Assembly (NCBI GenBank): GCA_032718475.1
Contig: JAUCBJ010008729.1
Coordinates: 1,486-65,485 of the forward strand
Reading direction: 5' to 3'
Length of the DNA stretch: 64,000 nucleotides
Source of the DNA: Nemertoderma westbladi
Lineage: Eukaryota > Animalia > Xenacoelomorpha
In this document: positions 22,726 through 64,000 of the stretch, piece by piece
Numbering within the stretch: the first letter of the stretch is position 1
How the letters are laid out: every line of letters begins with the position of its first letter
Notes under the pieces: model-generated
Database searches by the model: none
What the model was told of the DNA's origin: nothing
Seen by the model: only the letters and a program-made list of their open reading frames with translations
Made by a program: the position numbers and the translations under genes

Positions 22726-24686
22726 GTTTGATTGTACAGTTGAATGCCTACTACTATAATGACAGTTAAAGCAAGTCTAGTAAATCAGTATCAACTGTTA
22801 GCCTAGTAATTAATTACCGATATCGTTACTCAATGTAACGCGATATATATATAATATATTAGAATACCGGTATACACTTATAGTATATATATAAGTATTA
22901 TTACAGACTAGGGTTTGTCACAGAATACCGGTATATAATTTCAGCATAAATATATAGAAATATATATAATAAGCCTACCGTGAATACCGGTATACAGCAT
23001 ACACTTATAGTATATATAAGTATGATTATAGAATAGAATTAATTACAGAATACCGGTATATAATTTCAGCTTAAATTTATAGAAATAAATATAATAAGCC
23101 TATCGTAAATACCGGTAATGTCAATTATTTTACGATGCCTAAATTTTTGAATTTTAGGGTTACTTTCCTTTACTTTATTACTGTTATTAAGCAGTAGTCC
23201 AACTGATGTTAAGACCTAATTGATGTATAACAGGCCTACTATTTTATAAATTGGTTTGAGTTGATTTATAATATATATATAACCGTATAATGGGTTTTTG
23301 ACAATATTTGAAATAAATATTATTATTTCTGGTAAGGAGTCACTACACAGAAGCTGAACGCTCTCAGTGGAGTGCTACTTGTTGGACACTAAAACAAATA
23401 ATTATACTTGACTAAGTTACTTATTACTACAAATTACATACAATTACTGGGCGAGATTTCAATCTCTAATAAACACAAAAATTACACGTACAAATTTTAG
23501 GGTAATTTTACAGGAAATCTAGAAACCAGCCTAACAAGGGGTTAGAATTTCTGGTTATTACAACGGACAGGATACTACGGTATTTGAAAATAATTAAGCA
23601 GTAGTAAATAAATTGCGTTGTCCAGATAAGAAAATACCACCATCTGACGACTTATAGTCTTTAGCTGTACAGCTCTATAAGTACTACGTTATGTACCCGG
23701 AGTGTTCTTACCTAGAAGTTAATTACCGCAGCCAACCAGAGCTAACGTGCCTATTAACCACTTTACAACACAAATATACTGCCTACACACTAATTACCTT
23801 CGGAAAGTACTGTACACTAAACCCTAAAGTAGGTACAAGTACTTATACAACAAATAACCAGCAGTTAAAAATACTTGTACAGCTAAAAGAACCACGGTAT
23901 CTGCTGGAGTGACTAGAGCATAAAATCACCAGTCTTTACCTACGCCAAGCAGCCCTGATGTAGTACCGGGGTTAATTTAACTATAACGGTATATATAACA
24001 AGCACAATTACTGTAGGAATAAACTTGGGGAGTTATGTATGTTGCGAATACTCGTATATACTCTGAATAATAAATATTACGCTATCCGTGCAGACTACAC
24101 AAACAAAATACAAACTAAACGCTGGCAGACTACTATCAAGCCTAAATAAACTACAGTATATGCAGACTCCGGAATGGTTAGTTAGTATGCGTTCTAACCG
24201 AGTAGTACGACTTATTCTTTCGGGGGGGATTTACCTTACAGCACTGGATGCCCCCACCTTCCTAACTAGTACTTTATTGGACATACACTCTACACACACT
24301 GCAATCTCTTCAGACTCAACAACAGTCAGACAACAATCCAGCCTACAAATTATTTGTACAATTTGAGCGGGCTTACACGCCTTCTGCTCAATATTACACT
24401 TACAAATAAATAAAACTGACAGAAATAAATAAGCTCTAAAAGAAACAAGGGGTGTACAGTCCCTAATCTCTTAAACAGCCTACCAATATACAATATCACA
24501 ATCGAAATAATACTGGTACCGGTAAGTACCGGTTCGGGTGGCTAGGTAGTTAGGCCTACAGGTTACCATCCGACCGGTACAGTCGAATTTATTGCCTACG
24601 TGCAATCAAAACAAAAAATCTATTATTGTTCTTACCAGAACAATAGACAACTATATTTTTGTTTCTAAAATTTGAAAATCTATTAT

Positions 24687-24972: not shown

Positions 24973-27169
24973 TGATAAACAACCGCGACCTCTATACTAA
25001 CAGCAGAACCGTTGAACAGACAAATACCCGTATACCTCTCTGCCAACCTAATGACTGTAATGAGCTCTCGCCTAACCAATAACAGAATAAGACACAAAGA
25101 CTGCACTACTGTTAAGTAAAGGGGATCAGGAGCGTGATATTACTAAATTGTAAGGGTTGCTAAATACAAAACCGCTACTTATCGTTAGATGGCGCTAATC
25201 TGCCGTACGCTAATATATTTACTAAATTTACACAACTCCTGCAAAATCGCTTGTTCCTTTCTCTACCGATCGCTCGATAGAGAGCTAACTGTTCGAATCT
25301 ATGAGCCACGCGGGAATAACCAAAACAATAAACCCGAGTCGGCTCCCTAAGCTTACTTAAGACGAGTGCGAGAGGCCTTGCACTCAGAGTATTCTTACGC
25401 CTAATTTTATCACTATTAAAGCACGCTATTACCTACGTCTTTCTAATCGCGAATACTGGAGGTTCCCTAACGTAATGTGTGAATGCGAGAATATTTAAAT
25501 ATCAAAACGGTACAGTATCTGTTCCTACGTAAATAACATCACTCCGGGTCTAAAATCGCCTGCAGCTGGCTTTAGACCAGCAAATTACTAGCGTATCGTG
25601 CGTACCGAATAGTACAATCTAGCTGATTGCCCGCTAATGCAAATAACCGCTCAGCGTGAATAGTTTACAGTACTCTAATTATTACTTTAGCTACTCTCCG
25701 CTATGCTGCGTACTAATTCTTAATTTTTACTAATTAATTACAGTCACAAATATTTAACAGCGTACTAATTACTAAGAGTTCCAGAATACGTAATTCTAAT
25801 TTATTACGCAACAAGTTTCGCTAGTAATAGCCTAAATTTGCCGTATTACTTTGACCTAATCAGTAACCAATTATTGTAACTAAGAAATAGAAATCAATCA
25901 AAGAAAAGGGGGGCGCCTACCTAAACATTCATAATCATAGGCACACTTCAATAACACACCAATCAGCGTTCACAGTTCGCAATTATGCAGTTAACTACTG
26001 TATAGTCCACAATTATGCGACTCACTATTCGTACTCTACATTTAACGTTATACGCTCTAATACGCTGTAACACGTGCAGGCCTCTCCCGGGTACATATGG
26101 GACTCCTAACTAACCTGATTCCTGCCCCCTAATACTAAATAGAGACGAAACCTGGATCATCAGCCCCCTAATTACTGTACCGGCGATAGGTCTGCCCGTT
26201 GCACGCAAGTTGCCCGACCCCCGCCAGCGTTGCCTGCCTTTGAATCCTCTGCTCTCCCTTAGTCGCTCAACCCCCCGATGTGCCCACCGCCCACTGGCGC
26301 CTTAGCCCTCCATTATGCTAATAGCTACCGTAGCGGCGCATGCAAATCACAAAGTCTGACAGTCTCAGGAATCCCTTAGGATTATTGCGCAGAAAAGAAT
26401 CACATAGAACCATTAATCAAAAGGTAGAAATCATAGTTCAGTTGTAATTAGCAGTAATCGACAGGAATTAATTGAGAAACACAAGCAAGAGTAATCGCAC
26501 TAGCAAATCATTCCAAGAAATTAATCAAATTAGCAAATTGCAGAAAAATACAAGTATCAAGAAAAACAGTAAGACAGGTGCTAGGGCTAGGTGTCATGTG
26601 ATGATAGGCTCTACCGGCACACCGCCAATTTATAGGTGATCCAGATGGGGTGATGCAATAGGGTGACTCAATCGCTTTCTTATTGGCTCTCCAGTCCGTG
26701 CTAGCACTAGACCAACCTGGAAGCAGCTAGTCCAATAAGGAGGCCGGATTGTAGCCCTATTTGCTCCCCTTCCTCGAATTATTACCATATATGGTAATGG
26801 TTCACGTCTCTGGCTGCTGAATGGCCAGGACAGCGTCCCTATATGCTAGCCCTACTAAAGCTAATATCAGCAAGCACGGAATCCAGGGTCCGAATAAACT
26901 TACCCTGGAACTATCTACATATAACCTAATACAAAATTACGTAGGTAGGGCTACATACTATACAAAATGGATGGATTCAAATATATGGGTGTTTCGATTT
27001 CCCTATCTAAATACCACTGCGTTATTATGCCTTATCTAAAATATCATGCTGCACAACGGACTAATATTACATACAGTATAACGGACTAATATTGCATACT
27101 GCATAACGGACTAATATTGCATACTGCATGATGACTAATATTATGGATACAGCGCCATATACCGTAACA
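24973..27169 (-). repeat. 3' LTR of element B (2197 bp)
   Basis: Near-identical to 42089-44304 (about 3 substitutions and indels of 6, 12 and 1 bp seen). Short ACGGACTAATATT tandem repeats at 27056-27143. Confidence 0.97.
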
Positions 27170-27181
27170 CCGCTCCAAGGG
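27170..27181 (-). other. Short polypurine tract of element B (minus strand CCCTTGGAGCGG|TG)
   Basis: Abuts the 3' LTR; GGAGCGG core shared with A. Confidence 0.7.
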
Positions 27182-28045
27182 AAATCATACAATGTTTCCC
27201 TCCAATTGTAGAAGAGTATAAGGTGATGTATACAAAACAAAATAAATTTCTTCCAACCAATCTAAATAACATAATAATTCTACTATTTACAAATATTGCC
27301 ATAGATATTGCATAATGAATTTACATACAAATTAAAATTACAAAATATTGTTTCTCGTTCGTTCTACATAATGATTACTACATACAAAATTAAATTACAA
27401 AATATTACTTCCTTTATTTACTTACAAATTGACGATCTACATATTGAAATGAAACATGGCTAGGACAATGTCCCCCATTTCCCATCTCAAATTAACAAGC
27501 AATATTAACAAGATAAACTAAATATAAACGTATTTGAGGCTAAATTTTTAACTAAATTGCATTAAAGGCCGATAATCAAATTAAATATAAAATACGTAAT
27601 AATTTCTTTCATTTTCGGACTTTACTTAATTTCTTATAAAAAACGCAAATCATCTTGGTTTGATGATTGCTAGGACAAGTGAAAGGAGTAAGCCAAACCC
27701 GCAGGTTTGTCTCCCCAATCACTTCCTTCGCCTCTCTCATAATATAAATTCAAATAATTATGCAACTAGTGTATATGAGTCTAGTCGGATATTTCTAAAA
27801 TGCTACAATATACATCAGAGCGACGATCATGTATATATCTAGAGTCTGTCGCCCTGTGATACGATGCATTAACAACCCGCTCCTGGGTTCTTCGGGCTCG
27901 CTCCTCTCTTTCGCCCTCTGCCCAGATACACCAGTCGTCCTCTAGTCGACTCTGTTGACGGCGTCCGTGAGGCGTCACTCCCCGGAACCGGCGACGACGT
28001 TCCCTGAGCCCCGACAGACTCCCGGCTCGCACTTCTCCCTCGGCC

Positions 28046-31000
28046 TCATCCCAATTGTCGCGCTCCCGTGGTCGCTTCCGCCAACTCTTCCTTCTGCAGT
28101 TGCACACGCGCTTTCTCAGACGCCCCCTGCGCCTTGCGCTGCAACCGCTGCGCTTCTATAATCGAATGGTAGTGGTCGTCCTTGACTTGACGCTTGTCTT
28201 GGACCTCTCCTCCTGGTTCTTTCCGCGAGCCTCGCGCTCCAGCGGTCGTCGCTGTGGTCGCTGCGATCCTTTGCTCTCGTATCCTCTCAGCGGTCAATGA
28301 ACCCACTGGCACATGAGTCAACAAGAATTCGTTGCGGTACTGTATAGCCGCCATCCTCCAATCTCCTCGCGCGCGTACCACCTTTCTAGTCTCCGTAAAT
28401 ACACCCTTCGTAATGCGATCGCAAATGGCAACGAAGTTCCATGTGTACTTATTGTCCATGTTCAATTGTCTGAAGTACTCTCGAACTACGATAACTCCAG
28501 TGTTCTGTGGAAGGTCTTGAGCAGTTAGGATGAGCTCCTGATATTGTGGTAGCGATTGTAAATATGGCTCGTACGCAACATGCGATGGGTCTACCGCCCA
28601 AAACCCATATCCCGCTTTAAATGGTAACCAACGCATCTGCGCTTGGATATGGTAATCGGCCACACCCTCCCACTTATCTAACATCTCCCGAAGTAGGTTA
28701 GCGCTATGGTTTTGAAAGGAATCATCTCGTAGCTGACATCTTGCGCTACGATGTCCCTTTACCCCGCAATATTCGCATTGAGAAATGAAGACGGTGCACG
28801 TATGAAACGAATGGTCGGTCTCATTACACCAACGGCAGACCTTATGCGCCGCCTCTATTACCGCGTCGCACGACTTTAGATTGTGCCTTGTGCTGCCGCA
28901 CAATTTGCACCTACGCGCTTGTGGAAACCAGGCCCTCTCGTATATGAGGTCTCCAATCGGTTTCGCACTTCCTTCTTTCCCAATGTCTAATACGATGTCG
29001 TCCTCTCCAGTCAACGGTTGTCGATCCGGAACAAAGTAAACATCCTCGCCCTTATCCTCTATCTCCAATATTTCCTCCCGCGTTCGTTTCGGATATGTCT
29101 TCTCCACCGGGAGATCTACTCCGAACACCTCTACTAAAGTCTCCGGCCAGCCCTCCTTAACAGGTTTATCAGCCTCCGAGTGGAAGGGAGTACCAAACCC
29201 GCGGGTTTGATTCCCGAACCACTTCTCCAAAGCTTCTGGCGTCGGATATTCCATCGACGGTCGGTCTCCCAAATCTCCGATATTCTGTCGATATATTCCT
29301 TCGAATATCGCTAATCCTCTCCTCACCATCGACGTATTCTCTAACGATTGGTTGAAGAACGGGGTTAAGAAACGCTTCATCACGTCGGATTGGATTCCCC
29401 CTTTCGAGCGAACGTATTGATCTCCTCCGAATACCAATGGATGACGCTTCAAAACTCGCGCAACGATATCCGCTAATAAACAAGTCACCGTGTTCGACTC
29501 AAGCACCAAATAATATTGTAGCGACGCACGGGGTGGCGCGCAAATGTTCCAATACACTAACGCTTGCCGCTTGAAGTGGGATTTGAACTCCGCTCCCGGT
29601 GGCGTGTTGTATTCGCCGTACGCCTCCTCGTACTTCTTTTGCGTCTTTAACTTAAAGTCCCAATTATACAACAAGTGTGCTATAAAGCCCATACCAGTCT
29701 TGGCAGAGTTGGGATACTCCCTATAAATTCCAATATCCTGTGCCCATAGCAACAATAGCTTGGTGTCGACAAACGGTCTAGGCAATCTATCTTCCAGATC
29801 AGTCATGGCGTTGAAGTCGCTCTCCAAATCGCTCTGGACTCCCGATCCCACCTTGACGTAATCTTGGTTGAGAATAGCCTCTCTAACTTTCTTGGGTAAC
29901 ATCCTGGCGTCGATACGCTCCGCTCCGTGCATACCTCCTCGCCTGCATACCTCCAAAATCTGTTCCCTAGGATCCTTTCCCTTCCGATATTGTGTCGTTA
30001 TGATGGGCTCCGGTCTCTCTCGATCCGCCCTCACACGCATAAACACATGAGTCACACCATCGGCCGCACGAATCTGAATACACTTGCTGGTCAAGCATTC
30101 TTGATGGGACCCTCCTTCATTGTCGTAGAACATCACCCTCCAATCTTGCAGTGATTCCTCCGTTTTCCTCCACTGACGCTGAATCTCATCTGATGGGGTC
30201 CACATGCGCTCGATCGCCTTGTGGTCATCATATCGGGTATAAGAACCCTTCCTCCTCAGCCACGTCTGGTCTACCTCCTCGTCGTCTGGGAATGTAGCCA
30301 CCGCGACCCATACCTTGATGTACTTATCCAACCATCCGAATAACTTACTCTCCTTCCCCGGAGCTCCAATCTTATCCAACGTGTCGTAATCTGTGATCTG
30401 CATTGGGACATCACGCAAGAACTTCGCGCATAAAACTTCCCGTAAACAGTCAACGTTCCAATGGTCCGCCATTCTTACCATCGGCAAGAATCGTATCGCT
30501 TCTCGCGACTCCGGATGATCTACTAATATCGCAGGTTCGGTGCCGTCGGAATAATACACCGGTCCGGGTTGAGATACGACCTGTGGAACAAATCCGGTCA
30601 CTCTCCTCGTCTCCTCTTGATGTCTATCCGCGGTCTTATTATACTCCGCTATCCTGTTCTCAAATAACTCCTTCGCCTTCGCCGCTCGCTCCTCCTGCCG
30701 CAACGCGTCTATGTCGTCCTGATGCTCAGGCGTGAGGCTTCTCACTCGGTGAGGTGAAGTAAACGTAGTCCAGGGACTCGAGAGCTCCAAACCCGCGGGT
30801 TTGGTACCCGAGTCCCGCGCCGCTTCGCGCCGCGCCTCTAGATCCTTGTAGGCTCGGTATAGCGAAATGGCCGCTGCCGTCTCTATCAAACTGGGTGTCG
30901 AACAGGGTTTAATCTCCGTATACGGATCTAATGTCGTAACGGTCGGCGTAATGGGTCTCGGAGGTCGCTTTCCGCTGAAGTCGATACTGATCATCGGGTT

Positions 31001-31576
31001 GCTCATCGGGTAACCTCCCTCGTTATATCTAAGGAATTGGTGAGCTGGACATCGCGTTAATATCGGTTCCGGATGTTGCTCGTCTAATCGGTCGGGAATC
31101 GCCACGTCCTGTTTATTCATGCATTCACCACACTTGTAGAAGAGCTTGTATACGCTGAAGACTTTCGGCGTCTCCTGATCCTCGCCTCGAGTCCTCCGAT
31201 ACAGATGCATTCCGTCGAACTGGTCTCGGACTGCAGGTAGAGGCTCCTCATGTCGTAAATACATATTCATATGGTATAGTCGTGCGATTTCCTCGTCCGG
31301 ATCTGCGCTAATGTCGCACACGTCCAAAGCAAAGTCGTAGGGATACCGCGTGCGATACTCTTTCCGCAAGACTTCCATCCGGTCCCCCAATGCTCTCATT
31401 CTTTCTCTCCGTAATTCTTTATCATAACTTGGTTTATACTTCCCGTTCAGCTCCATCACGGACCGCCCATGGTAGTAAACGTTAGAGTCTTTACATCCCG
31501 GTCGCGCGAATGGTAGCTCCGCCTTTTCTCTGGCAGTAAATCCTCTGCGCGGTTGCGCTCTAATATCCCTCTCCAT
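28046..31576 (-). CDS. Element B accessory ORF3, 1176 aa, three tandem CCHC zinc knuckles, no Env hallmarks; function unknown
   Basis: Open 3.5-kb frame between pol and the 3' LTR. CKLCGSTRHNLKSC, CRWCNETDHSFHTC and CEYCGVKGHRSARC are all C-x2-C-x4-H-x4-C. No N-terminal hydrophobic signal or C-terminal TM anchor is evident. Confidence 0.88.
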   Translation of the reverse strand: MERDIRAQPRRGFTAREKAELPFARPGCKDSNVYYHGRSVMELNGKYKPSYDKELRRERMRALGDRMEVLRKEYRTRYPYDFALDVCDISADPDEEIARLYHMNMYLRHEEPLPAVRDQFDGMHLYRRTRGEDQETPKVFSVYKLFYKCGECMNKQDVAIPDRLDEQHPEPILTRCPAHQFLRYNEGGYPMSNPMISIDFSGKRPPRPITPTVTTLDPYTEIKPCSTPSLIETAAAISLYRAYKDLEARREAARDSGTKPAGLELSSPWTTFTSPHRVRSLTPEHQDDIDALRQEERAAKAKELFENRIAEYNKTADRHQEETRRVTGFVPQVVSQPGPVYYSDGTEPAILVDHPESREAIRFLPMVRMADHWNVDCLREVLCAKFLRDVPMQITDYDTLDKIGAPGKESKLFGWLDKYIKVWVAVATFPDDEEVDQTWLRRKGSYTRYDDHKAIERMWTPSDEIQRQWRKTEESLQDWRVMFYDNEGGSHQECLTSKCIQIRAADGVTHVFMRVRADRERPEPIITTQYRKGKDPREQILEVCRRGGMHGAERIDARMLPKKVREAILNQDYVKVGSGVQSDLESDFNAMTDLEDRLPRPFVDTKLLLLWAQDIGIYREYPNSAKTGMGFIAHLLYNWDFKLKTQKKYEEAYGEYNTPPGAEFKSHFKRQALVYWNICAPPRASLQYYLVLESNTVTCLLADIVARVLKRHPLVFGGDQYVRSKGGIQSDVMKRFLTPFFNQSLENTSMVRRGLAIFEGIYRQNIGDLGDRPSMEYPTPEALEKWFGNQTRGFGTPFHSEADKPVKEGWPETLVEVFGVDLPVEKTYPKRTREEILEIEDKGEDVYFVPDRQPLTGEDDIVLDIGKEGSAKPIGDLIYERAWFPQARRCKLCGSTRHNLKSCDAVIEAAHKVCRWCNETDHSFHTCTVFISQCEYCGVKGHRSARCQLRDDSFQNHSANLLREMLDKWEGVADYHIQAQMRWLPFKAGYGFWAVDPSHVAYEPYLQSLPQYQELILTAQDLPQNTGVIVVREYFRQLNMDNKYTWNFVAICDRITKGVFTETRKVVRARGDWRMAAIQYRNEFLLTHVPVGSLTAERIREQRIAATTATTAGARGSRKEPGGEVQDKRQVKDDHYHSIIEAQRLQRKAQGASEKARVQLQKEELAEATTGARQLG

Positions 31577-32356: not shown

Positions 32357-35300
32357 CTAACTCTGTTTTGAGGCAGGAGACAAATTATAATCTCCTGTCT
32401 TGATACGTGTCTCCTCTAATAACACAATATCTTGGACCGGTCGGTCCAAGGTGTGTAAACCATTAGTTTTACACTTTTTTGGGTGCGGACACTTGCACCT
32501 AATTTTCACAGTGACTGTGCGCACTATGTTATGCACGTCTGGGTGTGTGTGCAAGATCACTCCAGTCTCCCAATACTTTCTCTTGACAATGGGTTCGGTT
32601 ATCAGTACGTAATCTCCCCTTTGGAGGCTCCGAACCGTTTTGTACCACTTTGTTCTGGTGGATATGGTGGGAAGATAGTATTCCCGCCAATATTCCCAGA
32701 ATGTGTACGCTACTAATTGAGTCACTTTCCAGCTCTTACGACTATATAGGTCGGCACTAATGGGTTCTGATGCCGGCACAAGAAATGCTGGACTCTGCAT
32801 TAGCAAATGATTCGGCGTTAATGCAACACCGTCTGGTAACATAGCTATCGGCCTCGAGTTTAGGGTATGCTCGATTTCAATGAAAGCTGTGACCAGTTCG
32901 TCGTCGGTAAGTTGTTTGTTCACAGGCAATGTTTTAGCAATGGCCTGCTTTACAGAGCGAACTAAACGCTCCCAACTTCCTCCTCTCCAAGGACTTTCTG
33001 GAGTATTGAATCTCCATTCTACTCGTTGCGGCAAAAGTGCTGCAGAAATTTCCTTATTCTGTGCTGCTTTATGAGCCGCGTTCAACTCGCTATTCCCTCC
33101 GACAAAGTTTGTACCCTTATCGGAGTAGAACGCCTTTACTAGTCCTCTCCTGGCCATAAATCTCTTTAAGGCCAGGAGCAGAGATTTGGTCGACATGTCT
33201 GCCACACGCTCAATGTGTATGGCTCTACTCGCCATACATGTCAGTAGCAGACCCCATCGTTTGTGGGTCAGCCGTCCACTCTTTGCTTCAATCGGACCAA
33301 AACAATCCACCCCTGTGTTCGTAAAGGGTGGGTCATATGCATGCACTCTCGCTTCCGGGAGTTCAGCCATCTCCTGTTCCAATACTCTGGCGTTCACTCT
33401 CTTGCAAACCAGACAGGCGTCGTACATGGTGCCTACTGCCCTGCTTGGCTGCAATAGAATGAATCGCTGTCTCGCTGCCGACAAACAGTGTAACTTTCCC
33501 GCGTGATGCAACCTCTTGTGTATATCCCATAGAATCGCTCTTTGCAATTCTGTTGGGTGACTAGGGATTATCACTGGGAACCGAAACTGTGAGTTTATGT
33601 CGACAGTCTGGATTCTCGATCTATGACAAATCAAACCCTTATGGATTAATGGACTCCATTTTCTAAGGGGTTTATAGAGAACTGGTCGTTGAGCCGATAA
33701 TAGATGGAATTCTTTGGGGAAGGCACACATTTGATAATGTTTCAAATGCTTTAATTCCGCTTGATCAATCTCATCCTCTGTCAGAGGTTGTTTCAATTTC
33801 CGAATTCGCTCACTATTGGTGCTCAATGGTTCTCTCAAATGTTTCGAATGTTTTAAACAAAGGTACGAAATGTATCGGCTTAACCACGCAGTTCTTTTAC
33901 AAATTGTCAGCCAAGAGGCAGACGAATTTAGTAATTTGTCATAAATACTGCATGACTCTAATGCCAGCGACGGTTGTCCGCTAACCAATGGAAGTTTCGA
34001 ATCCAAACCCGCAGGTTTGGAAACCAAAGGCTCCATTGTGTCGGTCATTTTCTGTCCGTCACTTACCAACTGTGACTCCGGTTTAGTCTGTAAGGGTGGT
34101 TTTATGTCGTAACTTACCCTTCCTGACCTAGTAGTCACGTAAGTCTGTTGGTCTGACAGGTCTCCGGGCCGCTCCAATGACTCTTCAGGCCGCTCCAATG
34201 ACTCTTCAGGCCGCTCCAATGACTTAAGTTTGGCTTTAGACTTCGACTTAGAGACTTTCTCCACTTTGACTTCTGCATCTTCAGGCATCGGATTGGTCAC
34301 TATCTTTAGTCGCTCTGGCCAATGTTCCTGTGTCCTTGTTAGAAAATCAGGTCCATGCAACCAAAACTCCTGCGACTCTTCCTGACAAAATTCCGCCGGC
34401 ATTGCACCTCTCGAAGTTATGTCGGCCGGGTTCAACACTCCCGGACAATGTCTCCATTGTTCCTTCGTCGAAAAGTCAACGATCTGAGCGCGTCTGTTGG
34501 CCACAAATGTCTTTAGTGCAATATTGTCGGCCGCAATGTATACTAACACTAAGGATGCGTCCGTCCAATAGAATAAGGTCAATGTCGTGTCTAATTCCTC
34601 TGTTATTTGCTTACTTACCTCGACTGAAACTACAGCCGCCTGTAACTCTGCACGAGGGACAGTCATGTATTTGACCGGCATTGTCTTTGATCTAGAAGTC
34701 ACAAAGGCCGTCTCAAACTTGTCCTGACTTACCTCTCGGCGAAGGTAGGCTACCATACCAAAGCCGGTGTCACTTGCGTCACTAAACATATGCAGTTCGA
34801 GATCAGCTGGAAATACCAGCTGATTCGGAAAGTAGGAACGGGGTACGTCTATGTTTTTCAATAGATGTAACTCGGCTTCCCACTCTCTCCACTGCTTTGC
34901 ATGTATAGGAGATATTGGTTCGTCCCACTCTACGTCGGACAACCAAATTTTCCTCATGCACGCTCGTGCCTGTAATATAACCGGACTGATAAAGTTCATC
35001 GGGTCAAATAGTCTACTCAATGTCGATAAGCAAATCCTCTTAGTCAAAACTTTGTCTGGGCTACTGGGCTCAAATCTAACTCTTACCTGGAACTTATCTG
35101 AGTTCGGGTTCCAAGCGAGTCCCAGTACTCGCGCCATGGGGATTGGTTCTACCCCCAATTCTATGTCTCCGCTCCCGCGATCTTTTACCGGGAACGACTC
35201 TAATAGGGCCTCCGAATTCGTAGTGAACTTGGTCAGAGGAAATCCCCCTGTAGCCAAGCACTCTTGCAGGCCGTGAGCCACTTCTATGGCTTGTTCCGCC

Positions 35301-37330
35301 GTGTCCTTGGACACCAATCCGTCGTCCATGTAGAAGTTTCTCAAGATGGACTCGATAACCTCTACTGGGTACTTACCAATCTGGGCTGTTGCCGTTTTCT
35401 TTAGAACAAACAGCGTGCCATTCGGACTATCGCGGGCGCCAAATATCCTAACGTACATTTGGTATGTAACCACTGGGCCGGATAAGTCTTCATTCTCGTA
35501 CCAGAGAAAGCGAAGGCTATCCTGGTCTGCCTTACAGGCTCTTACCTGGTGGAACATCGCCTCGATGTCACAAGTAAATGCGAATCGTCGCTGTCTAAAA
35601 CGCAACAGTATTCCTATCAAATAGTTATTCAGGTTGGGACCATCCATCAACTCTGAATTCAGGGACATACCTCTATAGACTGCTGCGCAGTCGTTGACTA
35701 CTCGGACTTTGTCTGGCTTGTCAGGGTGAGTCACATAGTGGTGTGGAAGGTAATAAGTCTGGTCTGTCACTAAGTCAGGGTCCTCTACCTTCCCAGCAAA
35801 TCCCTTGGCGAAATAGTTGTTGATCTGGGCGCAATACTTCTCCCTAATGTCCGGATTCCTTAACAACCGAGCCCTTACTCCGTTCAATCTTTTCAAGGCT
35901 AAGTTGTAGTTGTTCTCCAACTTAGGTGGTTGTCGACGCCACAACATTCCAACTTCAAAATGTCCAGTCGGTAGCAGACGTATGGTGTCTTCCATCATCT
36001 CCAGCGACCGTTTTTCATCAGTAGACATGGCTAGGTCATATCCACCGGGTTCCATTGCGTCCCTATCCAGCCATTCGACGGTTCTGGCTCCTGTCTCGAG
36101 GTCCTGGCGTATCAATTCCTTCTGTAATTCCTCCTCACTGTATTGGAAAATGTCGAGGTCTCGATATTTAGCCACTTGACCCTCCACTATGTCTGTATAA
36201 GTCAAAACGTTAGTCAAATAGGTAGCGTGGGCCGCTGAACCAGACCCACGGGTCTGATAACAGTAGTCCTCGGGTTCACTATCTGTCCGGTCGTTATGAA
36301 GTGGTTCCGACAACCTAACATTATCGGGAATCAACTCCTCGTCCGACTCGCTAAAGTCACTATAGTGGTCAATACAGGTTCTCCTAAACTCGTCTATGTC
36401 TGGTGGTTCTACTAACGGTGGTTGAGTTATAGGCTGTAATTCGTCGTATCTATTCATTGGCTTGTCGCCACCTGTAAACTCATAAGACATGGGTACTCGT
36501 GTATACCAACCTAATATAGTCCTATGGGCATGTGGTCCATTGACATGCGGCTCAGCTGGTCTCGTTTCCCATATCTGGTGTGCGATCAGCTGTTCTGCAC
36601 CAATCAACATAGAAACATTCCTATAACCTACCTGGTGTCTGGGTATCCTGAGCTTGTCAAAATACTCCTGTGCTATGGGACTCATCGGCGGCACCTTACC
36701 TAACTGCCTGCCGAATCCCTTCATAGCTAGACACTTAAATCCGTCCAATGGCAAAGCTTTCCGTTCTTGTCGAGTGTGTTGGTCTCTCGGTAGTAGGGAA
36801 TCTAGTTCTACCGAAATTCTGTGTCCCTTGAGGTCTCCTACCCCATGCATAGACTTCAACTCTATTTGGATCTCCTCGGCGTCCTGGAAGCTAGAAACAG
36901 CTCTCGCCACTTCCTCGTCGATATAAGATAATGTGGACGCAGTGTCCAACATCACATATATTCGCTTCGATCCCTTATCGCCAGTGAGTTTCACCGGAAT
37001 CACGCTAAATATTTCCGACGTGGCCGATGATAAATACGTCCGCGCGCTGGTCGATGAACTATCCGCGGTGAAACCTTGGCAGGTCACTTCTCTCGCGCTC
37101 GACTCGCCATCCTCGTCCGACGAACCTGGTTGGTAACCATCGTCCTGGATGCCGGTGTACGTATTTCTCCTTATCGATACGGGTTCTTTGCTCCCCTTCC
37201 TGTGAGGATTTCGCTGTAAGTAACGGTCCGTCGGGGTGTGGAAATCCGCATGTAGCAACTTGTAGTCTGCCGCATTCCATGCATCCGTCCTTGCTGTTCG
37301 GGCACTGCCGCCGTACATGACCTGGCGCAA
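32357..37330 (-). CDS. Element B pol (protease, RT, RNase H, integrase)
   Basis: MLDTAS; RVVNDC, DIEAMFHQ, FGARDSP, YMDD; FSDAS, RAELQAA, WTD; H-x4-H..C-x2-C, GVDCFGP, SDKGTNF, GGSWERL. Confidence 0.96.
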   Translation of the reverse strand: MRQVMYGGSARTARTDAWNAADYKLLHADFHTPTDRYLQRNPHRKGSKEPVSIRRNTYTGIQDDGYQPGSSDEDGESSAREVTCQGFTADSSSTSARTYLSSATSEIFSVIPVKLTGDKGSKRIYVMLDTASTLSYIDEEVARAVSSFQDAEEIQIELKSMHGVGDLKGHRISVELDSLLPRDQHTRQERKALPLDGFKCLAMKGFGRQLGKVPPMSPIAQEYFDKLRIPRHQVGYRNVSMLIGAEQLIAHQIWETRPAEPHVNGPHAHRTILGWYTRVPMSYEFTGGDKPMNRYDELQPITQPPLVEPPDIDEFRRTCIDHYSDFSESDEELIPDNVRLSEPLHNDRTDSEPEDYCYQTRGSGSAAHATYLTNVLTYTDIVEGQVAKYRDLDIFQYSEEELQKELIRQDLETGARTVEWLDRDAMEPGGYDLAMSTDEKRSLEMMEDTIRLLPTGHFEVGMLWRRQPPKLENNYNLALKRLNGVRARLLRNPDIREKYCAQINNYFAKGFAGKVEDPDLVTDQTYYLPHHYVTHPDKPDKVRVVNDCAAVYRGMSLNSELMDGPNLNNYLIGILLRFRQRRFAFTCDIEAMFHQVRACKADQDSLRFLWYENEDLSGPVVTYQMYVRIFGARDSPNGTLFVLKKTATAQIGKYPVEVIESILRNFYMDDGLVSKDTAEQAIEVAHGLQECLATGGFPLTKFTTNSEALLESFPVKDRGSGDIELGVEPIPMARVLGLAWNPNSDKFQVRVRFEPSSPDKVLTKRICLSTLSRLFDPMNFISPVILQARACMRKIWLSDVEWDEPISPIHAKQWREWEAELHLLKNIDVPRSYFPNQLVFPADLELHMFSDASDTGFGMVAYLRREVSQDKFETAFVTSRSKTMPVKYMTVPRAELQAAVVSVEVSKQITEELDTTLTLFYWTDASLVLVYIAADNIALKTFVANRRAQIVDFSTKEQWRHCPGVLNPADITSRGAMPAEFCQEESQEFWLHGPDFLTRTQEHWPERLKIVTNPMPEDAEVKVEKVSKSKSKAKLKSLERPEESLERPEESLERPGDLSDQQTYVTTRSGRVSYDIKPPLQTKPESQLVSDGQKMTDTMEPLVSKPAGLDSKLPLVSGQPSLALESCSIYDKLLNSSASWLTICKRTAWLSRYISYLCLKHSKHLREPLSTNSERIRKLKQPLTEDEIDQAELKHLKHYQMCAFPKEFHLLSAQRPVLYKPLRKWSPLIHKGLICHRSRIQTVDINSQFRFPVIIPSHPTELQRAILWDIHKRLHHAGKLHCLSAARQRFILLQPSRAVGTMYDACLVCKRVNARVLEQEMAELPEARVHAYDPPFTNTGVDCFGPIEAKSGRLTHKRWGLLLTCMASRAIHIERVADMSTKSLLLALKRFMARRGLVKAFYSDKGTNFVGGNSELNAAHKAAQNKEISAALLPQRVEWRFNTPESPWRGGSWERLVRSVKQAIAKTLPVNKQLTDDELVTAFIEIEHTLNSRPIAMLPDGVALTPNHLLMQSPAFLVPASEPISADLYSRKSWKVTQLVAYTFWEYWREYYLPTISTRTKWYKTVRSLQRGDYVLITEPIVKRKYWETGVILHTHPDVHNIVRTVTVKIRCKCPHPKKCKTNGLHTLDRPVQDIVLLEETRIKTGDYNLSPASKQS

Positions 37331-40300
37331 GACATGCCCAACAGGTGTCCAACGTCCGCACTTGAACTCTTCTCTGTTCCGAATTTAATTCTTTGAACCG
37401 TCTGCAACTATCTAACTTATGGTCGTCAGATCTTACCTCCTTTAGTAAACAGTATTGGCAACCTACAAATCCATCCGGCAACTCCTGTTGCTTTAACCTA
37501 GGTCTATCTAACCGCTCACCTGACCATACTCGCGAGTCTGATCTAAAGGCTGGGGTATTCGAATTATATCTGTCTACTGAGTTAAATGTCACAGTGGTCC
37601 TGTCATCGTCAAAACTTACCATAGACTTACCGGTAACAGGTTTAGACTCCCTCATATTCTCCTCTGAGAAGTTTGATTTCATCTCTGCTACTGCGTCTGT
37701 GGCTATCATGTCATGAATATGCTGAAGTGTCAATACTTTACCTTGGCCCTCCAACTTATTCTCTAATTTGCGCCATTTCTGTCGATAACGCATATTTAGA
37801 CGTCTTATTACGCTTTTCAAAACTTCGGCGTGATCACCATGATGAGGTAGATTCACCGTCCTCAGGATGTCCAATGCGTTCGAAATAGCGTTCGCTAAGT
37901 TCAAAAGCTCTAACGGAGTTGTAATCCTTCCGCCCTTACCCAAGTCTTCTACTATCGACTGCGCCATCTTGGTTTTATTCCCGTAGATGTCGCTAAGCGT
38001 CTTCATCGCTAACTCAAATGCTCTCTCGTTGCCGACGAAGTTATCAGCAATGGCTCTAGGTTCTCGATGGAGCATCTGAAGCAAATAGTTGAACTTCTCG
38101 TTGGGAGTAAAGGTGCTGTTGGTTAGCTGCTCGTCGACATAGGTTTTAAAGGTCCTCCAGTGCTTATGGTTGCCCATAAACTTCTGGGGTTGTTGCGTCG
38201 GCAGTCCTTGCCTAGCAGCAAACTTACCTATGTCCCTAAGGGTTGCGTCGTTCCGGGTTAACAAATGGTTTAGTTCCGCAGGGTTGTTAAGTCTGGTCCT
38301 TTCCCGGTGGTTCCAACTTACCTGCTCCGCGTCGGTCCTTCTTTCCTTATAGTTTCGGGACTTCTGACGTCTCATTTCTTCCTCTTCATCGCTCGACTCG
38401 GTGTCAGTCCTTAACGCTCGCGATGGTTTGCGCGCCGAGGCCCTGATCCAAGCCTCCTCTATAAATTTCTCGGCTGAGTTTTCGAAGTTGGGATTAGAGA
38501 TGTTCGGGACAGGCGTCCTTACCTGAGGTCTATGTGGTATAGTTTCCTCCGATATGCGTACTCGTTGACTAGGCTGGACTTTGTCTAACTCAGGTCTGCT
38601 AGGATTAGAATTACTTCTTACCTGGGCTGCTTCCTTTAACCGTAGGTTGCTAAGCATGTCCGTTATAGGTTGGATGTGTGGCGATATAGCTTGCGCTAAA
38701 CTAGCACTCAACTCATCCCTCGTAATAAATTCCTGGCTAGGGTTCTGTTGTATAGTCGGCTCTATCTGAGTAATCCGCTGTCTCTCATATGATCCCTCTT
38801 CCGGTTTAACCCGGAAGTTCTCCGTCGAACTGGGTCGGCGCTCCGTCCGCGTATTCCAAACCCGCGGGTTCGGTTCGCCCAATACTCGGCCCGTCGGAGT
38901 TTCTTCTCTAAATTCTTCGTTGTCGCGTTCGGTGTATAGTGGTGCGGCGTTCCGATGACGTAGATCCTGCGCGATAGGTGAAGCACTAATACCAACTGGC
39001 GTGCGATATGTAGAGAATGGTTTAACGATCCGTGTACTCGTAATAGCTGGACCGGGTATAGGAATTTTGGTCGTCGTCGACTCGCGTATGGTCGGAGTTC
39101 TCGCTTCCTGTTCGGCCTTCTGCAGTGCGAACAGTTCTCGCAACTCGGTCCCTACACTCGCCCCACATTCTTCGATCATTCGCATCCCCTTCTCGGCGAT
39201 TTCGTTCGCCTTCCTAGTCCGTTCTTCGCTCTCTAAACTTAATCTCGCACTTTCCAACTGCGCCAGTTTACGTTCTTCTTCTTCCCTCGCTCGTCTCGCT
39301 GCGCCCTCTTCTTCCACTCGCGCCTTTTCTTCATACAATGCGCGTCTTCTTTTCTCGATCTCGAGTTCGCGTTCCTTGCGTCCGCGTTCGAGTTGAAGCT
39401 CGCGCTCCTTCTGTTCACGATCGAGTTTCTTGCGCTCGCGTTCGGCTTGGAGTTCGCGTTTCTTCGCTTCCTGTTCGCGTTCGAGTTGGAGTTCGCGTTT
39501 CTTCGCTTCCCGTTCGCATTCAAGTTGGAGTTCGCGTTTCTTCGCTTCCCGTTCGCATTCGAGTTGGAGTTCGCGTTCTCTCTGTTCGCATTCGAGTTCC
39601 TCGCGTTCGCGCTCGGCTTGGAGTTCACGTTCCCTTTGCTCGCGTTCCGCTCGCTCGCGCTTACTTATCTCTTCCAACTCTCGTAACTCTGCGTCCAACT
39701 TACGTGTGCGCTTCCGTTCCCTTTCGGCTTCCTTCCGTGCTTCCTGTGCACGCAAAACTTCCGCCTGCTGTTCGTCTAGTCGGCGTCTTCTCTCCTCCGC
39801 CGAGTTGTGAGAAACAAGGGATCTAGCACATATTACCTTACCTCGCGCGTGACTAACCTGGGAATCGCCGCTGTCTCTAGATGCGTCGTCGGGTGGAGTC
39901 AACGTCCTCTGTTGAATGTTCTCCGTCGTCGGTAGCACCTGACCCGGTACCACCACTCCATTCTGCATCAGCCAGCTAGTAACTTCCCTCTGATAACGGC
40001 GCTCCTCTTTATCCTGCGTCTCTTCTCGCTCCACTAAGTCTCTTAACTCTGCGTCACTCACCTGAGTCGCCTGCGCTTGTGATGCCCATAGCAGCCAGTT
40101 CTCTGTCCTAACTCGTCGGAATCGCTCCGATAACTCGCGGTGCTCTAACAAGGCTGCTAAAACCCTGTCGTAAATCCTCGTCGCCACGTCGCTCGACTGA
40201 GACTCCACTGCCTTCTTCGCTAGGACTGCAAGCTCCTCCGTCTGCTTGAATAACGCTGAGTTATTCCTCTTCTAATCTCTGCTAACTCTACCCTCCCGAT

Positions 40301-40807: not shown

Positions 40808-42088
40808 AGTCTAAATAATGTTTGCCTTCCGGCAAAATTATCTCGCAAAAGTTCGAGATATTATTATAATTTAACCGAAATACGGTCAAATTAATTGTCA
40901 AATAATCAGTTGGTCCAAAATGTCAAATAAATTCGCAATGCAATATTGTGAATTTAATGGGGTATATAGTTATAGCAAATACTAGCACAATATTTAAACA
41001 AAAATATTATTATATAGCTACTATATAGCATTAAATACTGGTATAGCACAAAATAACTCTGAATCTAATACAAAATATTCAAAATATACTTGCCACCCGA
41101 ATATTTCTAATTTTATATATATAGCTCTAATCAACGTAATTTTAATTTCAAATATTATATGTATCCACTAGCGCGTGGCTACATCTTCGGGTTGCGACTC
41201 TCTCTAACTCTCTCTCTAACTTGAGCGATTCAAAAAACCATGGCCGGCTAAACCTAAATATCCTAACTAATAAATTGAGTTCAGCTTCGCAGTTAAACAA
41301 CCGATAATTTTTTACTGCTTCCACAAACACACTGGTGCCAACAGAACAACCAACCTTGTTTGCTGTGAGATTCCACGTCCGCGTCCAAAGATTCAGGCTC
41401 TCCGCTGATTGCAAACCGAACCCGCAGACCCACACGAACCCCAAACTCAGAAGTTCCGTCTTGCCATGTATCTCCAGATGGTATAAAATAACTAAGCGGT
41501 TACCTAACATACCGGTACAAAACTCTAGAATTTTACAAAATAATTTTGACCGAAACTGAATTCTCGCAAACCTAGCTAATAATTTTCAAAAACTTACTAA
41601 TTACAATTTGCCCTAAGGCCTAAGGAACTGTATTCGCAATTAGTAAAAACGCACTACCGTACATCCACTGTATGCAGTACAGTAAGTAAAACAGTACACC
41701 AACCTAACAGCCTAATGATACTGTATATGTGGTACGGCAAAACAAATGTCCCTTCTACCGTACGCAGTAACAGCAATCAGCCTAATGTACTACTGTACTA
41801 TTGTACGCAGCCAGTGAATACAGTAATCTAAACTAACAACCTAAAGGAATATGCTCAATGTCTTACCGTACGCTAGCCTATAGCCTACAGCAGACGATCA
41901 CGTGCTCTAATTTATTGCCTAATACTATGATACTACTAATCAGCCTAAGAATACACTATCGACTGCTGCAAGCAACAGCCAATAAATGCACGTGTTACTG
42001 ATACGAAGTATCAGTAATCTAAACTAACAGCCTAAGAATACTCTATTTACTGTACGCTACAGCCTACAGCAAACAGTCCACGTGTTAC

Positions 42089-44304
42089 TGATAAACAACC
42101 GCGACCTCTATACTAACAGCAGAACCGTTGAACAGACAAATACCCGTATACCTCTCTGCCAACCTAATGACTGTAATGAGCTCTCGCCTAACCAATAACA
42201 GAATAAGACACAAAGACTGCTCTACTGTTAAGTAAAGGGGATCAGGAGCGTGATATTACTAAATTGTAAGGGTTGCTAAATACAAAACCGCTACTTATCG
42301 TTAGATGGCGCTAATCTGCCGTACGCTAATATATTTACTAAATTTACACAACTCCTGCAAAATCGCTTGTTCCTTTCTCTACCGATCGCTCGATAGAGAG
42401 CTAACTGTTCGAATCTATGAGCCACGCGGGAATAACCAAAACAATAAACCCGAGTCGGCTCCCTAAGCTTACTTAAGACGAGTGCGAGAGGCCTTGCACT
42501 CAGAGTATTCTTACGCCTAATTTTATCACTATTAAAGCACGCTATTACCTACGTCTTTCTAATCGCGAATACTGGAGGTTCCCTAACGTAATGTGTGAAT
42601 GCGAGAATATTTAAATATCAAAACGGTACAGTATCTGTTCCTACGTAAATAACATCACTCCGGGTCTAAAATCGCCTGCAGCTGGCTTTAGACCAGCAAA
42701 TTACTAGCGTATCGTGCGTACCGAATAGTACAATCTAGCTGATTGCCCGCTAATGCAAATAACCGCTCAGCGTGAATAGTTTACAGTACTCTAATTATTA
42801 CTTTAGCTACTCTCCGCTATGCTGCGTACTAATTCTTAATTTTTACTAATTAATTACAGTCACAAATATTTAACAGCGTACTAATTACTAAGAGTTCCAG
42901 AATACGTAATTCTAATTTATTACGCAACAAGTTTCGCTAGTAATAGCCTAAATTTGCCGTATTACTTTGACCTAATCAGTAACCAATTATTGTAACTAAG
43001 AAATAGAAATCAATCAAAGAAAAGGGGGGCGCCTACCTAAACATTCATAATCATAGGCACACTTCAATAACACACCAATCAGCGTCAGAAATTACAGTTC
43101 GCAATTATGCAGTTAACTACTGTATAGTCCACAATTATGCGACTCACTATTCGTACTCTACATTTAACGTTGTACGCTCTAATACGCTGTAACACGTGCA
43201 GGCCTCTCCCGGGTACATATGGGACTCCTAACTAACCTGATTCCTGCCCCCTAATACTAAATAGAGACGAAACCTGGATCATCAGCCCCCTAATTACTGT
43301 ACCGGCGATAGGTCTGCCCGTTGCACGCAAGTTGCCCGACCGCAACGTTGACCCCCGCCAGCGTTGCCTGCCTTTGAATCCTCTGCTCTCCCTTAGTCGC
43401 TCAACCCCCCGATGTGCCCACCGCCCACTGGCGCCTTAGCCCTCCATTATGCTAATAGCTACCGTAGCGGCGCATGCAAATCACAAAGTCTGACAGTCTC
43501 AGGAATCCCTTAGGATTATTGCGCAGAAAAGAATCACATAGAACCATTAATCAAAAGGTAGAAATCATAGTTCAGTTGTAATTAGCAGTAATCGACAGGA
43601 ATTAATTGAGAAACACAAGCAAGAGTAATCGCACTAGCAAATCATTCCAAGAAATTAATCAAATTAGCAAATTGCAGAAAAATACAAGTATCAAGAAAAA
43701 CAGTAAGACAGGTGCTAGGGCTAGGTGTCATGTGATGATGAGGCTCTACCGGCACACCGCCAATTTATAGGTGATCCGGATGGGGTGATGCAATAGGGTG
43801 ACTCAATCGCTTTCTTATTGGCTCTCCAGTCCGTGCTAGCACTAGACCAACCTGGAAGCAGCTAGTCCAATAAGGAGGCCGGATTGTAGCCCTATTTGCT
43901 CCCCTTCCTCGAATTATTACCATATATGGTAATGGTTCACGTCTCTGGCTGCTGAATGGCCAGGACAGCGTCCCTATATGCTAGCCCTACTAAAGCTAAT
44001 ATCAGCAAGCACGGAATCCAGGGTCCGAATAAACTTACCCTGGAACTATCTACATATAACCTAATACAAAATTACGTAGGTAGGGCTACATACTATACAA
44101 AATGGATGGATTCAAATATATGGGTGTTTCGATTTCCCTATCTAAATACCACTGCGTTATTATGCCTTATCTAAAATATCATGCTGCACAACGGACTAAT
44201 ATTACATACAGTATAACGGACTAATATTGCATACTGCATAACGGACTAATATTGCATACTGCATGATGACTAATATTATGGATACAGCGCCATATACCGT
44301 AACA
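42089..44304 (-). repeat. 5' LTR of element B (2216 bp)
   Basis: Direct repeat of 24973-27169. Confidence 0.97.
43763..43821 (-). promoter_or_regulatory. Candidate LTR B promoter: CCAAT (43817-43821) and TATAAAT (43763-43769)
   Basis: Motifs and spacing are typical of a Pol II promoter; no transcript evidence. Confidence 0.45.
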
Positions 44305-44309
44305 TGGCG

Positions 44310-45164: not shown

Positions 45165-45249
45165 GCCATTGTTTAGATATATATATCCTGAAAGTGAAAA
45201 TAAGGCTTTATTAGCTTTATCACACAGCAGCTTGTGCACACACAGCAGG

Positions 45250-45953: not shown

Positions 45954-45954
45954 G

Positions 45955-52163: not shown

Positions 52164-52189
52164 GTTAGTTCATTGTATCAAAAGCAACC

Positions 52190-63911: not shown

Positions 63912-64000
63912 ACCACAGTCTGAATCGTTGCTAAAGGTCTCACAACACTCTGACTGATTATCAGATTCTAATGAGCTATCTGATTGCTCATTAATGTCAC

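What the first reader, a model, noticed from the sequence alone, without database searches (positions are those of the whole stretch)
28046..31576. Large non-Env accessory ORF3 with three CCHC knuckles, conserved between elements A and B
Seen: an intact 1176-aa ORF in the env position of B and a frameshifted homolog in A (12831-9866). Colinear blocks (B/A): NGKYKPSYDKELRRE/DGRYIEPPMSKEQLTRE; LDVCDIS..LY..RHEEP/IDLHDTD..LF..RNDKP; RPFVDTKLLLLWA/YPFVDTQLIAPWA; LADIVARVLKRHPLVFG/LADVCSRTIRAHPLILG; KRFLTPFFN/RRFLTPFRN; three knuckles; WEGVADYH/WEANADLH. No signal peptide or TM anchor is evident. Established: described BEL/Pao third ORFs (Tas, Cer7, roo) are viral envelope captures. Inference: a conserved cytosolic or nuclear RNA-binding accessory protein retained across strongly diverged elements. 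It could be a chaperone or processing factor for the non-tRNA primer, or an anti-silencing factor. It is 0.8 kb (B) or 1.7 kb (A) downstream of pol, so it needs a spliced or subgenomic mRNA.
Basis: partly seen in the sequence, partly recalled or inferred. Interest (0 to 1): 0.85.

Follow-up and report, generated by a model that had tools for sequence, protein, structure and literature searches.

The report
Retrotransposon-encoded RNA-trimming exonuclease with zinc knuckles
A very large jumping gene of the BEL/Pao group carries, where its relatives sometimes carry a viral envelope gene, an intact and conserved gene predicted to encode a 3'-to-5' RNA-trimming enzyme fused to three zinc knuckles, which possibly trims the element's own RNA into the primer that it is predicted to use in place of a host tRNA.

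Summary
The 1176-aa ORF3 of element B is real, intact and not Env. It holds a DEDDy-type (EXD2/WRN/RNase D-like) 3'-5' exonuclease domain (aa ~465-715; D485, E487, D583, Y689, E693), then three CCHC knuckles and a conserved tail. Support: profile hit to EXD2 (E 6.6e-6, all three Exo motifs aligned), fold searches on a low-confidence model, and seven unannotated homologs sharing the knuckles, six with the exonuclease motifs. Other copies differ by 16 synonymous and 3 nonsynonymous changes. Element A shares only the C-terminal half; the claimed N-terminal blocks score at chance level. A and B each carry an exact 10-11-nt complement of their non-tRNA primer site inside their own LTR, the Tf1-type self-priming signature. 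Best guess (0.33): ORF3 trims the self-primer. Against this, element C, B's sister, has an open pol and no ORF3. Anti-silencing is a close rival. DEDDy ORF3s are known from rotifer Gypsy-like elements; my searches found none in BEL/Pao. New variant of a known kind.

The parts
28046..31576 (-). ORF3 of element B, 1176 aa, intact
   Evidence: 16 synonymous and 3 nonsynonymous differences in other copies
30185..31576 (-). N-terminal 464 aa, no family found; holds a CxxC...C..H cluster (C149, C152, C176) and a charged helical-looking stretch
   Evidence: no Pfam or PDB hit; absent from all 7 homologs; not folded
29432..30184 (-). Predicted DEDDy 3'-5' exonuclease domain (aa ~465-715)
   Evidence: profile against PDB: EXD2 E 6.6e-6, WRN E 0.015; Foldseek and VIA-align; ESM Atlas lead
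30116..30124 (-). Exo I motif D485-N-E487
   Evidence: column matches DxE of 5 homologs and of EXD2 LGIDCE
29825..29851 (-). Exo II motif VGSGVQSD583L
   Evidence: aligns to EXD2 KVGVGCSED and WRN KAGVGIEGD
29498..29512 (-). Exo III motif Y689-x3-E693 (E where D is usual)
   Evidence: aligns to EXD2 YAARDA
28736..28909 (-). Three CX2CX4HX4C zinc knuckles (aa 890-947)
   Evidence: 11 of the 12 ligands invariant in 9 of 9 rows; profile hits Lin28 and the TbRND zinc-finger domain
28577..28684 (-). Conserved post-knuckle motif (WEGVAD ... GYGFW)
   Evidence: A973 and G991 invariant in 9 of 9 rows
32357..37384 (-). pol of element B (BEL/Pao type, YMDD)
   Evidence: PF05380 E 1.7e-39, DUF5641, integrase H2C2
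37059..40271 (-). gag frame of element B
   Evidence: DUF1759 E 2.1e-9
24973..27169 (-). 3' LTR of B (2197 bp), left target-site copy at 24968-24972
   Evidence: 4 mismatches over 2197 aligned bases to the 5' LTR; 5-bp target duplication
42089..44304 (-). 5' LTR of B (2216 bp), right target-site copy at 44305-44309
27170..27176 (-). Purine-rich tract GGAGCGG directly before the 3' LTR, same as in A
42079..42088 (-). Non-tRNA primer-binding site of B
   Evidence: does not begin with TGG
43189..43198 (-). Exact complement of B's primer site inside the 5' LTR (second copy at 26067-26076): candidate self-primer
   Evidence: chance 0.0012 in 20000 resampled LTRs
41989..42003 (-). Second copy of B's U5/primer-site junction, in the 3' arm of a hairpin
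10198..11655 (-). Element A ORF3, C-terminal frame (486 aa): second half of the exonuclease, knuckles, tail
11656..12831 (-). Element A ORF3, N-terminal 132-aa ORF plus 781 nt of stop-ridden sequence; Exo I and II not recognisable
24676..24686 (-). Non-tRNA primer site of A; exact 11-nt complement at 9414-9424 and 44791-44801; junction repeated at 24616-24631
   Evidence: chance 0.0016
8647..9787 (-). 3' LTR of element A; its 5' LTR is split by B into 24687-24972 and 44310-45164
   Evidence: 14 mismatches in 1141
59642..64000 (-). Element C: open pol (1427 codons to the window edge), purine tract 70 nt after the stop, no ORF3

Best explanation
ORF3 is an intact accessory gene of a BEL/Pao-lineage retrotransposon, under purifying selection, whose product is predicted to be a DEDDy 3'-5' exonuclease with three zinc knuckles that likely bind RNA, and its most likely job is to trim the element's own RNA into the primer of a predicted tRNA-free, self-primed reverse transcription. 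Shown: the ORF, motifs, knuckles, selection, and the exact primer-site complement in both LTRs of A and B. Inferred: (a) DEDDy fold, 0.9; (b) catalytically active in B, 0.7; (c) the complement is the RNA 5' end and primes as in Tf1, 0.7; (d) ORF3 makes or finishes that primer. In step (d) a 5' piece of element RNA (cut by RNase H, or a short LTR-only transcript ending at the poly(A) signal about 275 nt downstream) would anneal by its first 10-11 nt to the primer site; the knuckles would hold the single-stranded overhang while the exonuclease shortens it towards the duplex, leaving a paired 3'-OH for RT. The whole chain is put at 0.33.
For: Profile of ORF3 plus homologs hits EXD2 (E 1.4e-5; E 6.6e-6 with Exo I, II and III aligned) and WRN (E 0.015). 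Foldseek: 6 of 6 hits at E<=0.001 are EXD2, followed by NrnC, Nibbler, RNase D, Rrp6 and TbRND; VIA-align Z 9.2 to EXD2, Z 8.1 to E. coli RNase D with 168 residues at rmsd 4.2. 16 of 19 listed differences are synonymous, pN/pS 0.05-0.08, P<=2e-6. 2 of 2 ORF3 carriers have the primer-site complement (P 0.0012 and 0.0016), with the first poly(A) signal 277 and 273 nt downstream. TbRND shows that an RNase D domain plus C-terminal CCHC fingers trims RNA 3' ends, the fingers raising binding and cleavage (PMC7797062).
Against: Element C is B's sister in the RT tree (SH-aLRT 99), has an open pol and no ORF3; since A and B both look self-priming, C probably does too, without ORF3 in cis (its primer site lies outside the window). 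A and B are kin, so 2 of 2 is not independent. Tf1 is recalled to self-prime with RNase H alone. DEDDy ORFs also sit in Terminons, which are not LTR elements (PMC5408684, PMC6431247). The fourth acidic residue is E, and Exo I/II were not found in A. ORF3 alone has no Pfam hit at E<=0.1 and no significant PDB hit. Models are poor (pLDDT 47.3 and 42.5) and use the same alignments as the profiles. The transcript start was not mapped; A's nearest TATAAA lies only 11 nt before the complement and B has none near it.
Confidence: 0.33

Rival explanations
1. ORF3 is an active exonuclease aimed at host small RNAs (piRNA or siRNA precursors, uridylated RNAs) and works as a dispensable suppressor of silencing, made from its own transcript.
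For: Patchy presence (A and B yes, C no) is what a dispensable counter-defence gene would give. Fold relatives include Nibbler, recalled to trim small RNAs. TbRND overexpression depletes guide RNAs (abstract of PMC7797062). PMC5408684 raises a mut-7-like silencing role. The same enzyme class recurs in unrelated retroelements with different priming.
Against: No evidence specific to this locus. Strong purifying rather than diversifying selection over the 19 differences seen, although that is a short time scale. Mature piRNAs are recalled to be 3'-methylated and resistant.
Confidence: 0.27
2. The exonuclease fold is catalytically weak or dead and serves, with the knuckles, as an RNA-binding adaptor (as recalled for Egalitarian and EXD1) that localises, protects or packages the element RNA.
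For: Exo III ends in E693, shared with A and P0002. Exo I/II not recognisable in A; P0001 lacks the Exo I glutamate and Exo II/III. Egalitarian is hit by the profile (E 0.013) and by fold (Z 7.7). 464 extra N-terminal residues suggest partners.
Against: B keeps acidic residues at all four positions plus the tyrosine; 6 of 9 rows keep DxE, 7 of 9 the Exo II D, 8 of 9 an acidic Exo III residue. A is broken in gag-pol as well, so its state says little.
Confidence: 0.17
3. ORF3 acts on DNA: a proofreading or end-polishing exonuclease for RT that helps copy an unusually long (19 kb) element.
For: DEDDy enzymes include polymerase proofreading domains and WRN (PMC5408684). B is about twice the ICTV upper size, and C, without ORF3, has its purine tract right after pol.
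Against: ORF3 and its spacers themselves account for much of the extra size. CCHC knuckles point to single-stranded RNA (Lin28 and TbRND hits). No fusion to RT.
Confidence: 0.1
4. ORF3 is an Env, a Gag duplicate, a separate nested element or a neutral passenger.
For: It sits in the env position; BEL/Pao Gag can carry three Cys-His boxes (PMC554778). The N-terminal 439 aa were not folded.
Against: No hydrophobic anchor or signal; no similarity to B's Gag or Pol; longest repeat shared by the two flanks is 11 nt; same position in A and B; 16:3 synonymous excess.
Confidence: 0.03

Closest known systems
DEDDy-type ORF3 of bdelloid rotifer Juno and Vesta LTR retrotransposons and Athena/Terminon elements (Rodriguez, Kenefick, Arkhipova 2017, PMC5408684; passages and abstract read)
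   Same: RNase D-like DEDDy ORF in the env position, family-specific presence, no TM or coiled-coil env features, activity untested, 3'-end processing and silencing proposed.
   Different: Those hosts are not described as BEL/Pao and mostly carry dUTPase; their motif is DEED, here it is DEDE; no triple CCHC array is described in the passages read (a Cys-His-Cys motif is); no link to self-priming. Sequence homology to them was not tested.
Trypanosoma brucei RNase D, TbRND (Gao et al., PMC7797062; abstract and one results section read)
   Same: DEDDy exonuclease followed by C-terminal CCHC fingers; hit by the profile over the knuckles (E 2.2e-5) and by fold over the exonuclease (Z 8.0).
   Different: Cellular enzyme that trims guide RNAs, four fingers, directly proven; here mobile, three knuckles after a ~170-aa linker, plus 464 unknown N-terminal residues. 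Orthology not tested; convergence is likely.
EXD2 / WRN exonuclease branch of DEDDy (PF01612)
   Same: Best sequence and fold matches; Exo I, II and III align.
   Different: About 15% identity, below Pfam detection, E at the last acidic position, fused to knuckles.
Tf1/Tj1 self-priming LTR retrotransposons (PMC4600332, passages read)
   Same: Primer site exactly complementary to a 10-11-nt stretch of the element's own LTR.
   Different: Those are recalled as Gypsy-group elements without an exonuclease ORF; here the host is BEL/Pao-like, for which the ICTV profile gives tRNA priming only (PMC8742986, whole text).
Belpaoviridae / BEL-Pao with env-like third ORF (Tas, Cer7, roo)
   Same: gag-pol domain set and order, third ORF position.
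   Different: Third ORF is an exonuclease, not a fusogen; 19.3 kb with 2.2-kb LTRs against 4.2-10 kb and 0.2-1.2 kb; no tRNA primer site; closest pol relatives only 37-43% identical.

Membership tests
DEDDy exonuclease | Exo I D-x-E | tested here: met
   D485/E487, column shared with EXD2
DEDDy exonuclease | Exo II aspartate | tested here: met
   D583 aligns to EXD2 and WRN
DEDDy exonuclease | Exo III Y-x3-D | tested here: inconclusive
   Y689-x3-E693: tyrosine kept, D replaced by E; 4 of 7 homologs have YxxxD
DEDDy exonuclease | RNase H-like DnaQ fold | tested here: met
   low-confidence model; Foldseek E 3e-4, VIA Z 7.2-9.2 to family members
DEDDy exonuclease | Metal-dependent 3'-5' activity | not testable with these tools
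   needs a bench assay
BEL/Pao (Belpaoviridae) | gag plus pol with PR-RT-RH-IN and BEL/Pao-type domains | tested here: met
   DUF1759, PF05380, DUF5641, H2C2; top relatives carry the same families
BEL/Pao (Belpaoviridae) | LTRs and a purine tract before the 3' LTR | tested here: met
   TG...CA LTRs, 5-bp duplication, GGAGCGG tract
BEL/Pao (Belpaoviridae) | 18-nt primer site for host tRNA-Arg or tRNA-Gly (ICTV profile) | tested here: not met
   sites do not begin with TGG and match the element's own LTR; no tRNA library was searched. Filed therefore as BEL/Pao-lineage, not as a typical member
BEL/Pao (Belpaoviridae) | Genome 4.2-10 kb, LTR 0.2-1.2 kb | tested here: not met
   B is 19,332 bp with 2.2-kb LTRs
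Retroelement Env | Signal peptide and transmembrane anchor | tested here: not met
   highest 19-residue hydropathy 1.34, charged N-terminus; simple scale only
Retroelement Env | Fusogen fold | tested here: inconclusive
   aa 440-1060 matches exonucleases; aa 1-439 not folded
Bdelloid DEDDy ORF3 pool (Juno/Vesta/Athena) | DEED motif variant | tested here: not met
   B reads D-E-D-E
Bdelloid DEDDy ORF3 pool (Juno/Vesta/Athena) | Clusters with those ORFs in a tree | not tested
   their sequences were not in hand; supplements not opened
Tf1-type self-priming mechanism | Primer site complementary to the element's own LTR | tested here: met
   10 nt in B, 11 nt in A, offset 0, P about 0.001 each
Tf1-type self-priming mechanism | The complement is the 5' end of the transcript | not testable with these tools
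   only assembled contigs of one run were available

The most novel reading that the evidence does not exclude
A clade of giant BEL/Pao retrotransposons has given up tRNA priming and makes its own primer with a dedicated encoded enzyme: a zinc-knuckle DEDDy exonuclease that trims a short LTR transcript down to the 10-11 nt paired with the primer site. This would be a third way to start LTR reverse transcription, beside tRNA priming and RNase H self-cleavage, and the first role for a widespread unannotated exonuclease-knuckle family.
Probability: 0.22. Interest if true: 0.85.

Novelty: new variant of a known kind. Interest (0 to 1): 0.6.

Why it matters
DEDDy ORF3s were reported in 2017 with no activity shown and no clear sign of selection on the extra ORFs. 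Here one is intact, young (LTRs 99.8% identical), under strong purifying selection, fused to RNA-binding knuckles and paired with a defined candidate substrate, so the open question of what retroelement exonucleases do becomes a simple in vitro test. It also extends the gene to BEL/Pao, suggests tRNA-free priming in a group described as tRNA-primed, and names an unannotated protein family that Pfam misses.

Tried and rejected
No genome is held for the window, so copy number and family-wide co-occurrence could not be counted. Word-based protein searches found 0 of 7,999 and 0 of 7,998 candidates. Context of the homologs could not be had: 0 of 94, 0 of 60, 0 of 16 and 0 of 276 pattern matches were confirmed; alignment A2 gave no usable pattern. 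So whether P0001-P0007 lie in retroelements is unknown. Pfam: 0 families for ORF3, only weak knuckle hits for the homologs, 1 of 6 exonuclease pieces hit PF01612 at E 0.036. The exonuclease-only model was worse (pLDDT 42.5) and was not searched; the wide fold search never ran and the Atlas look-up of aa 1-450 did not complete. BFVD gave nothing at E<=0.001. Expression: no RNA holder listed; one run whose kind is a guess; its contigs cannot show starts, strand or splicing; a joint 31612-37649 had a 21-nt side and non-canonical ends and was rejected as splice evidence. No tRNA gene or Rfam match in the window. A possible Exo I remnant in A near 12010 did not score above chance. Nested-element reading rejected. 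Earlier findings: none. A recollection that nematode Cer elements encode an RNase D-like domain or their own primer RNA could not be checked: Malik et al. 2000 is not held and searches showed nothing on it.
Full report
Observation. The ORF at 31576-28046 (-) is a single 1176-aa frame without stops. It lies between pol (37384-32357) and the 3' LTR of element B, which spans 24973-44304, has TG...CA LTRs with 4 mismatches over 2197 bases and a 5-bp target duplication. B sits inside the 5' LTR of element A. Gag and Pol carry DUF1759, PF05380, DUF5641 and the integrase zinc finger; the 120 best pol relatives listed, of 410 at E<=1e-50 among 7,991 scored, are 37-43% identical, and those with a name come from marine invertebrates. 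Three exact CCHC knuckles lie at aa 890-947 and there is no hydrophobic anchor.

Homology to element A. It is strong from B596 to B1049 (E 3e-30; 0 of 500 shuffles for both halves). In A, 781 nt between the N-terminal ORF and the 486-aa frame have 10-17 stops in every frame and match neither B nor the exonuclease profile. A's gag-pol is also in pieces.

What the protein is. Alone it hits nothing in Pfam or the PDB. A full scan of 1.84 billion representatives gave 7 proteins at E<=0.001, 514-727 aa, none annotated. All 7 share the knuckles and a tail motif; 6 share the exonuclease motifs, P0001 being degenerate and P0004 lacking the Exo I part. A profile of ORF3 aa 440-1060, six of the seven homologs (P0001 left out) and A's frame hits Lin28 and TbRND over the knuckles and EXD2 (E 1.4e-5) and Egalitarian (E 0.013) over the middle. 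A profile of the exonuclease part alone (B plus five of the seven homologs; P0001 and P0007 left out) hits EXD2 at E 6.6e-6 and WRN at E 0.015, with Exo I, II and III in register. In B these are D485, E487, D583, Y689 and E693. The AlphaFold model is weak (pLDDT 47.3), yet all 6 Foldseek hits at E<=0.001 are EXD2, and 38 of the 39 rows shown are DEDD nucleases or family-A polymerases (rows titled only 'nuclease' and the exosome chains assigned from recall). VIA-align gives Z 9.2 to EXD2 (rmsd 7.5, 124 aligned) and Z 8.1 to RNase D (rmsd 4.2, 168 aligned); the tool warns that Z near 8 can be common. The ESM Atlas lists a PF01612 cluster at 0.91 with 154 shared features, behind three unnamed clusters: a lead only. 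Profile and model share an alignment, so they are not independent. Names of motifs (Exo I-III) are recalled. I put the DEDDy fold at 0.9.

Selection. Contigs of the one listed run (kind uncertain) cover about half of ORF3 in four pieces with no gap; 19 of their 22 differences are listed. 16 are synonymous and 3 nonsynonymous, pN/pS 0.054-0.082, P from 2e-8 to 2e-6 depending on transition bias; a partial list for pol gave 12 and 3. It does not show transcription.

Priming. Neither primer site begins with TGG. The exact reverse complement, at offset 0, lies inside the element's own LTRs: 10 nt in B, 11 nt in A, with chance 0.0012 and 0.0016 in resampled LTRs. The first poly(A) signal follows 277 and 273 nt later, which fits a shared R length with the complement at the RNA start. 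That is the signature described for Tf1 and Tj1 (PMC4600332, passages). The ICTV profile gives only tRNA priming for Belpaoviridae (PMC8742986, whole text). The RNA start itself was not mapped.

A natural control cuts against a simple story. Element C (59715 to the window edge) has 1427 open pol codons and a purine tract 70 nt after the stop, and no ORF3 match in 45201-59800 or by profile. In a quick RT tree of 43 rows (A, B, C and 40 of the 120 relatives, every third id; the careful search did not finish) A, B and C group at SH-aLRT 99 and B is sister to C at 99; long branches may inflate this. So ORF3 was lost in C or moved between lineages, and it is not needed in cis by every member. C's primer site is outside the window.

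Mechanism. I commit to primer trimming at 0.33, because the self-priming signature is the only locus-specific clue and the enzyme class fits: TbRND, with the same domain order, trims RNA 3' ends and depends on its fingers (PMC7797062, abstract and section 13). Anti-silencing follows at 0.27, a dead RNA adaptor at 0.17, DNA proofreading at 0.10. How ORF3 is expressed is open: B's spacer has no polypyrimidine-AG match, and both ATGs follow a GC-rich then AT-rich run, a weak hint of an internal promoter.

What is known. DEDDy ORF3s are described in bdelloid Juno and Vesta elements and in Terminons, with 3'-end processing or silencing proposed and no activity shown (PMC5408684, abstract and passages; PMC6431247, passages). 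I found no report of such an ORF, or of self-priming, in BEL/Pao in searches, nor in term look-ups in PMC3118150, PMC13524379, PMC12440569, PMC554778 and bioRxiv 2023.08.08.552548 (passages only). PMC6648332 returned no passage. Subscription papers, Repbase, GyDB and all supplements were not seen; a recalled exonuclease or self-encoded primer in nematode Cer elements could not be checked and would lower the novelty if real.

Verdict. Interest 0.6.

Noticed in passing
window 41989-42016 and 24616-24647 (-): Both A and B repeat their U5/primer-site junction 60-90 nt downstream, as the 3' arm of a hairpin whose 5' arm could also pair with the true junction: a possible switch or decoy for priming.
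   Followed up: partly
window 59642-64000 (-): Element C, sister to B, with open pol and no ORF3; the presumed LTR after the purine tract begins TA rather than TG.
   Followed up: partly
window 37059-37384 and 19071-19120 (-): In both B and A pol lies in the +1 frame relative to gag (from the coordinates), whereas many relatives have gag and pol domains in one protein.
   Followed up: no
window 24968-44309: B (LTRs 99.8% identical) is inserted into the 5' LTR of A (98.8%); run X1 shows joints across this site, with only 20 letters on the short side.
   Followed up: partly
window 31577-31680 and 12832-12950 (-): GC-rich run followed by AT-rich TATA-like run just before the ORF3 start in both elements; possible internal promoter.
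   Followed up: no
window 42083-42088 and 44299-44304: The first six bases of B's primer site are also the reverse complement of the first six bases of its LTR; not so in A.
   Followed up: no
window 1134-5657 (-) and 53887-55053 (+): Non-LTR retrotransposon remnants: endonuclease plus RT, and a second RT piece.
   Followed up: no
window 55522-56613, 7500-8336, 7223-7336 and 50843-51220: Tandem arrays of 44, about 23 and 21 bp; the 21-bp unit occurs at two distant places.
   Followed up: no
P0001: Homolog with a degenerate exonuclease and two copies of the knuckle-plus-tail module, showing that this module moves as a unit.
   Followed up: no
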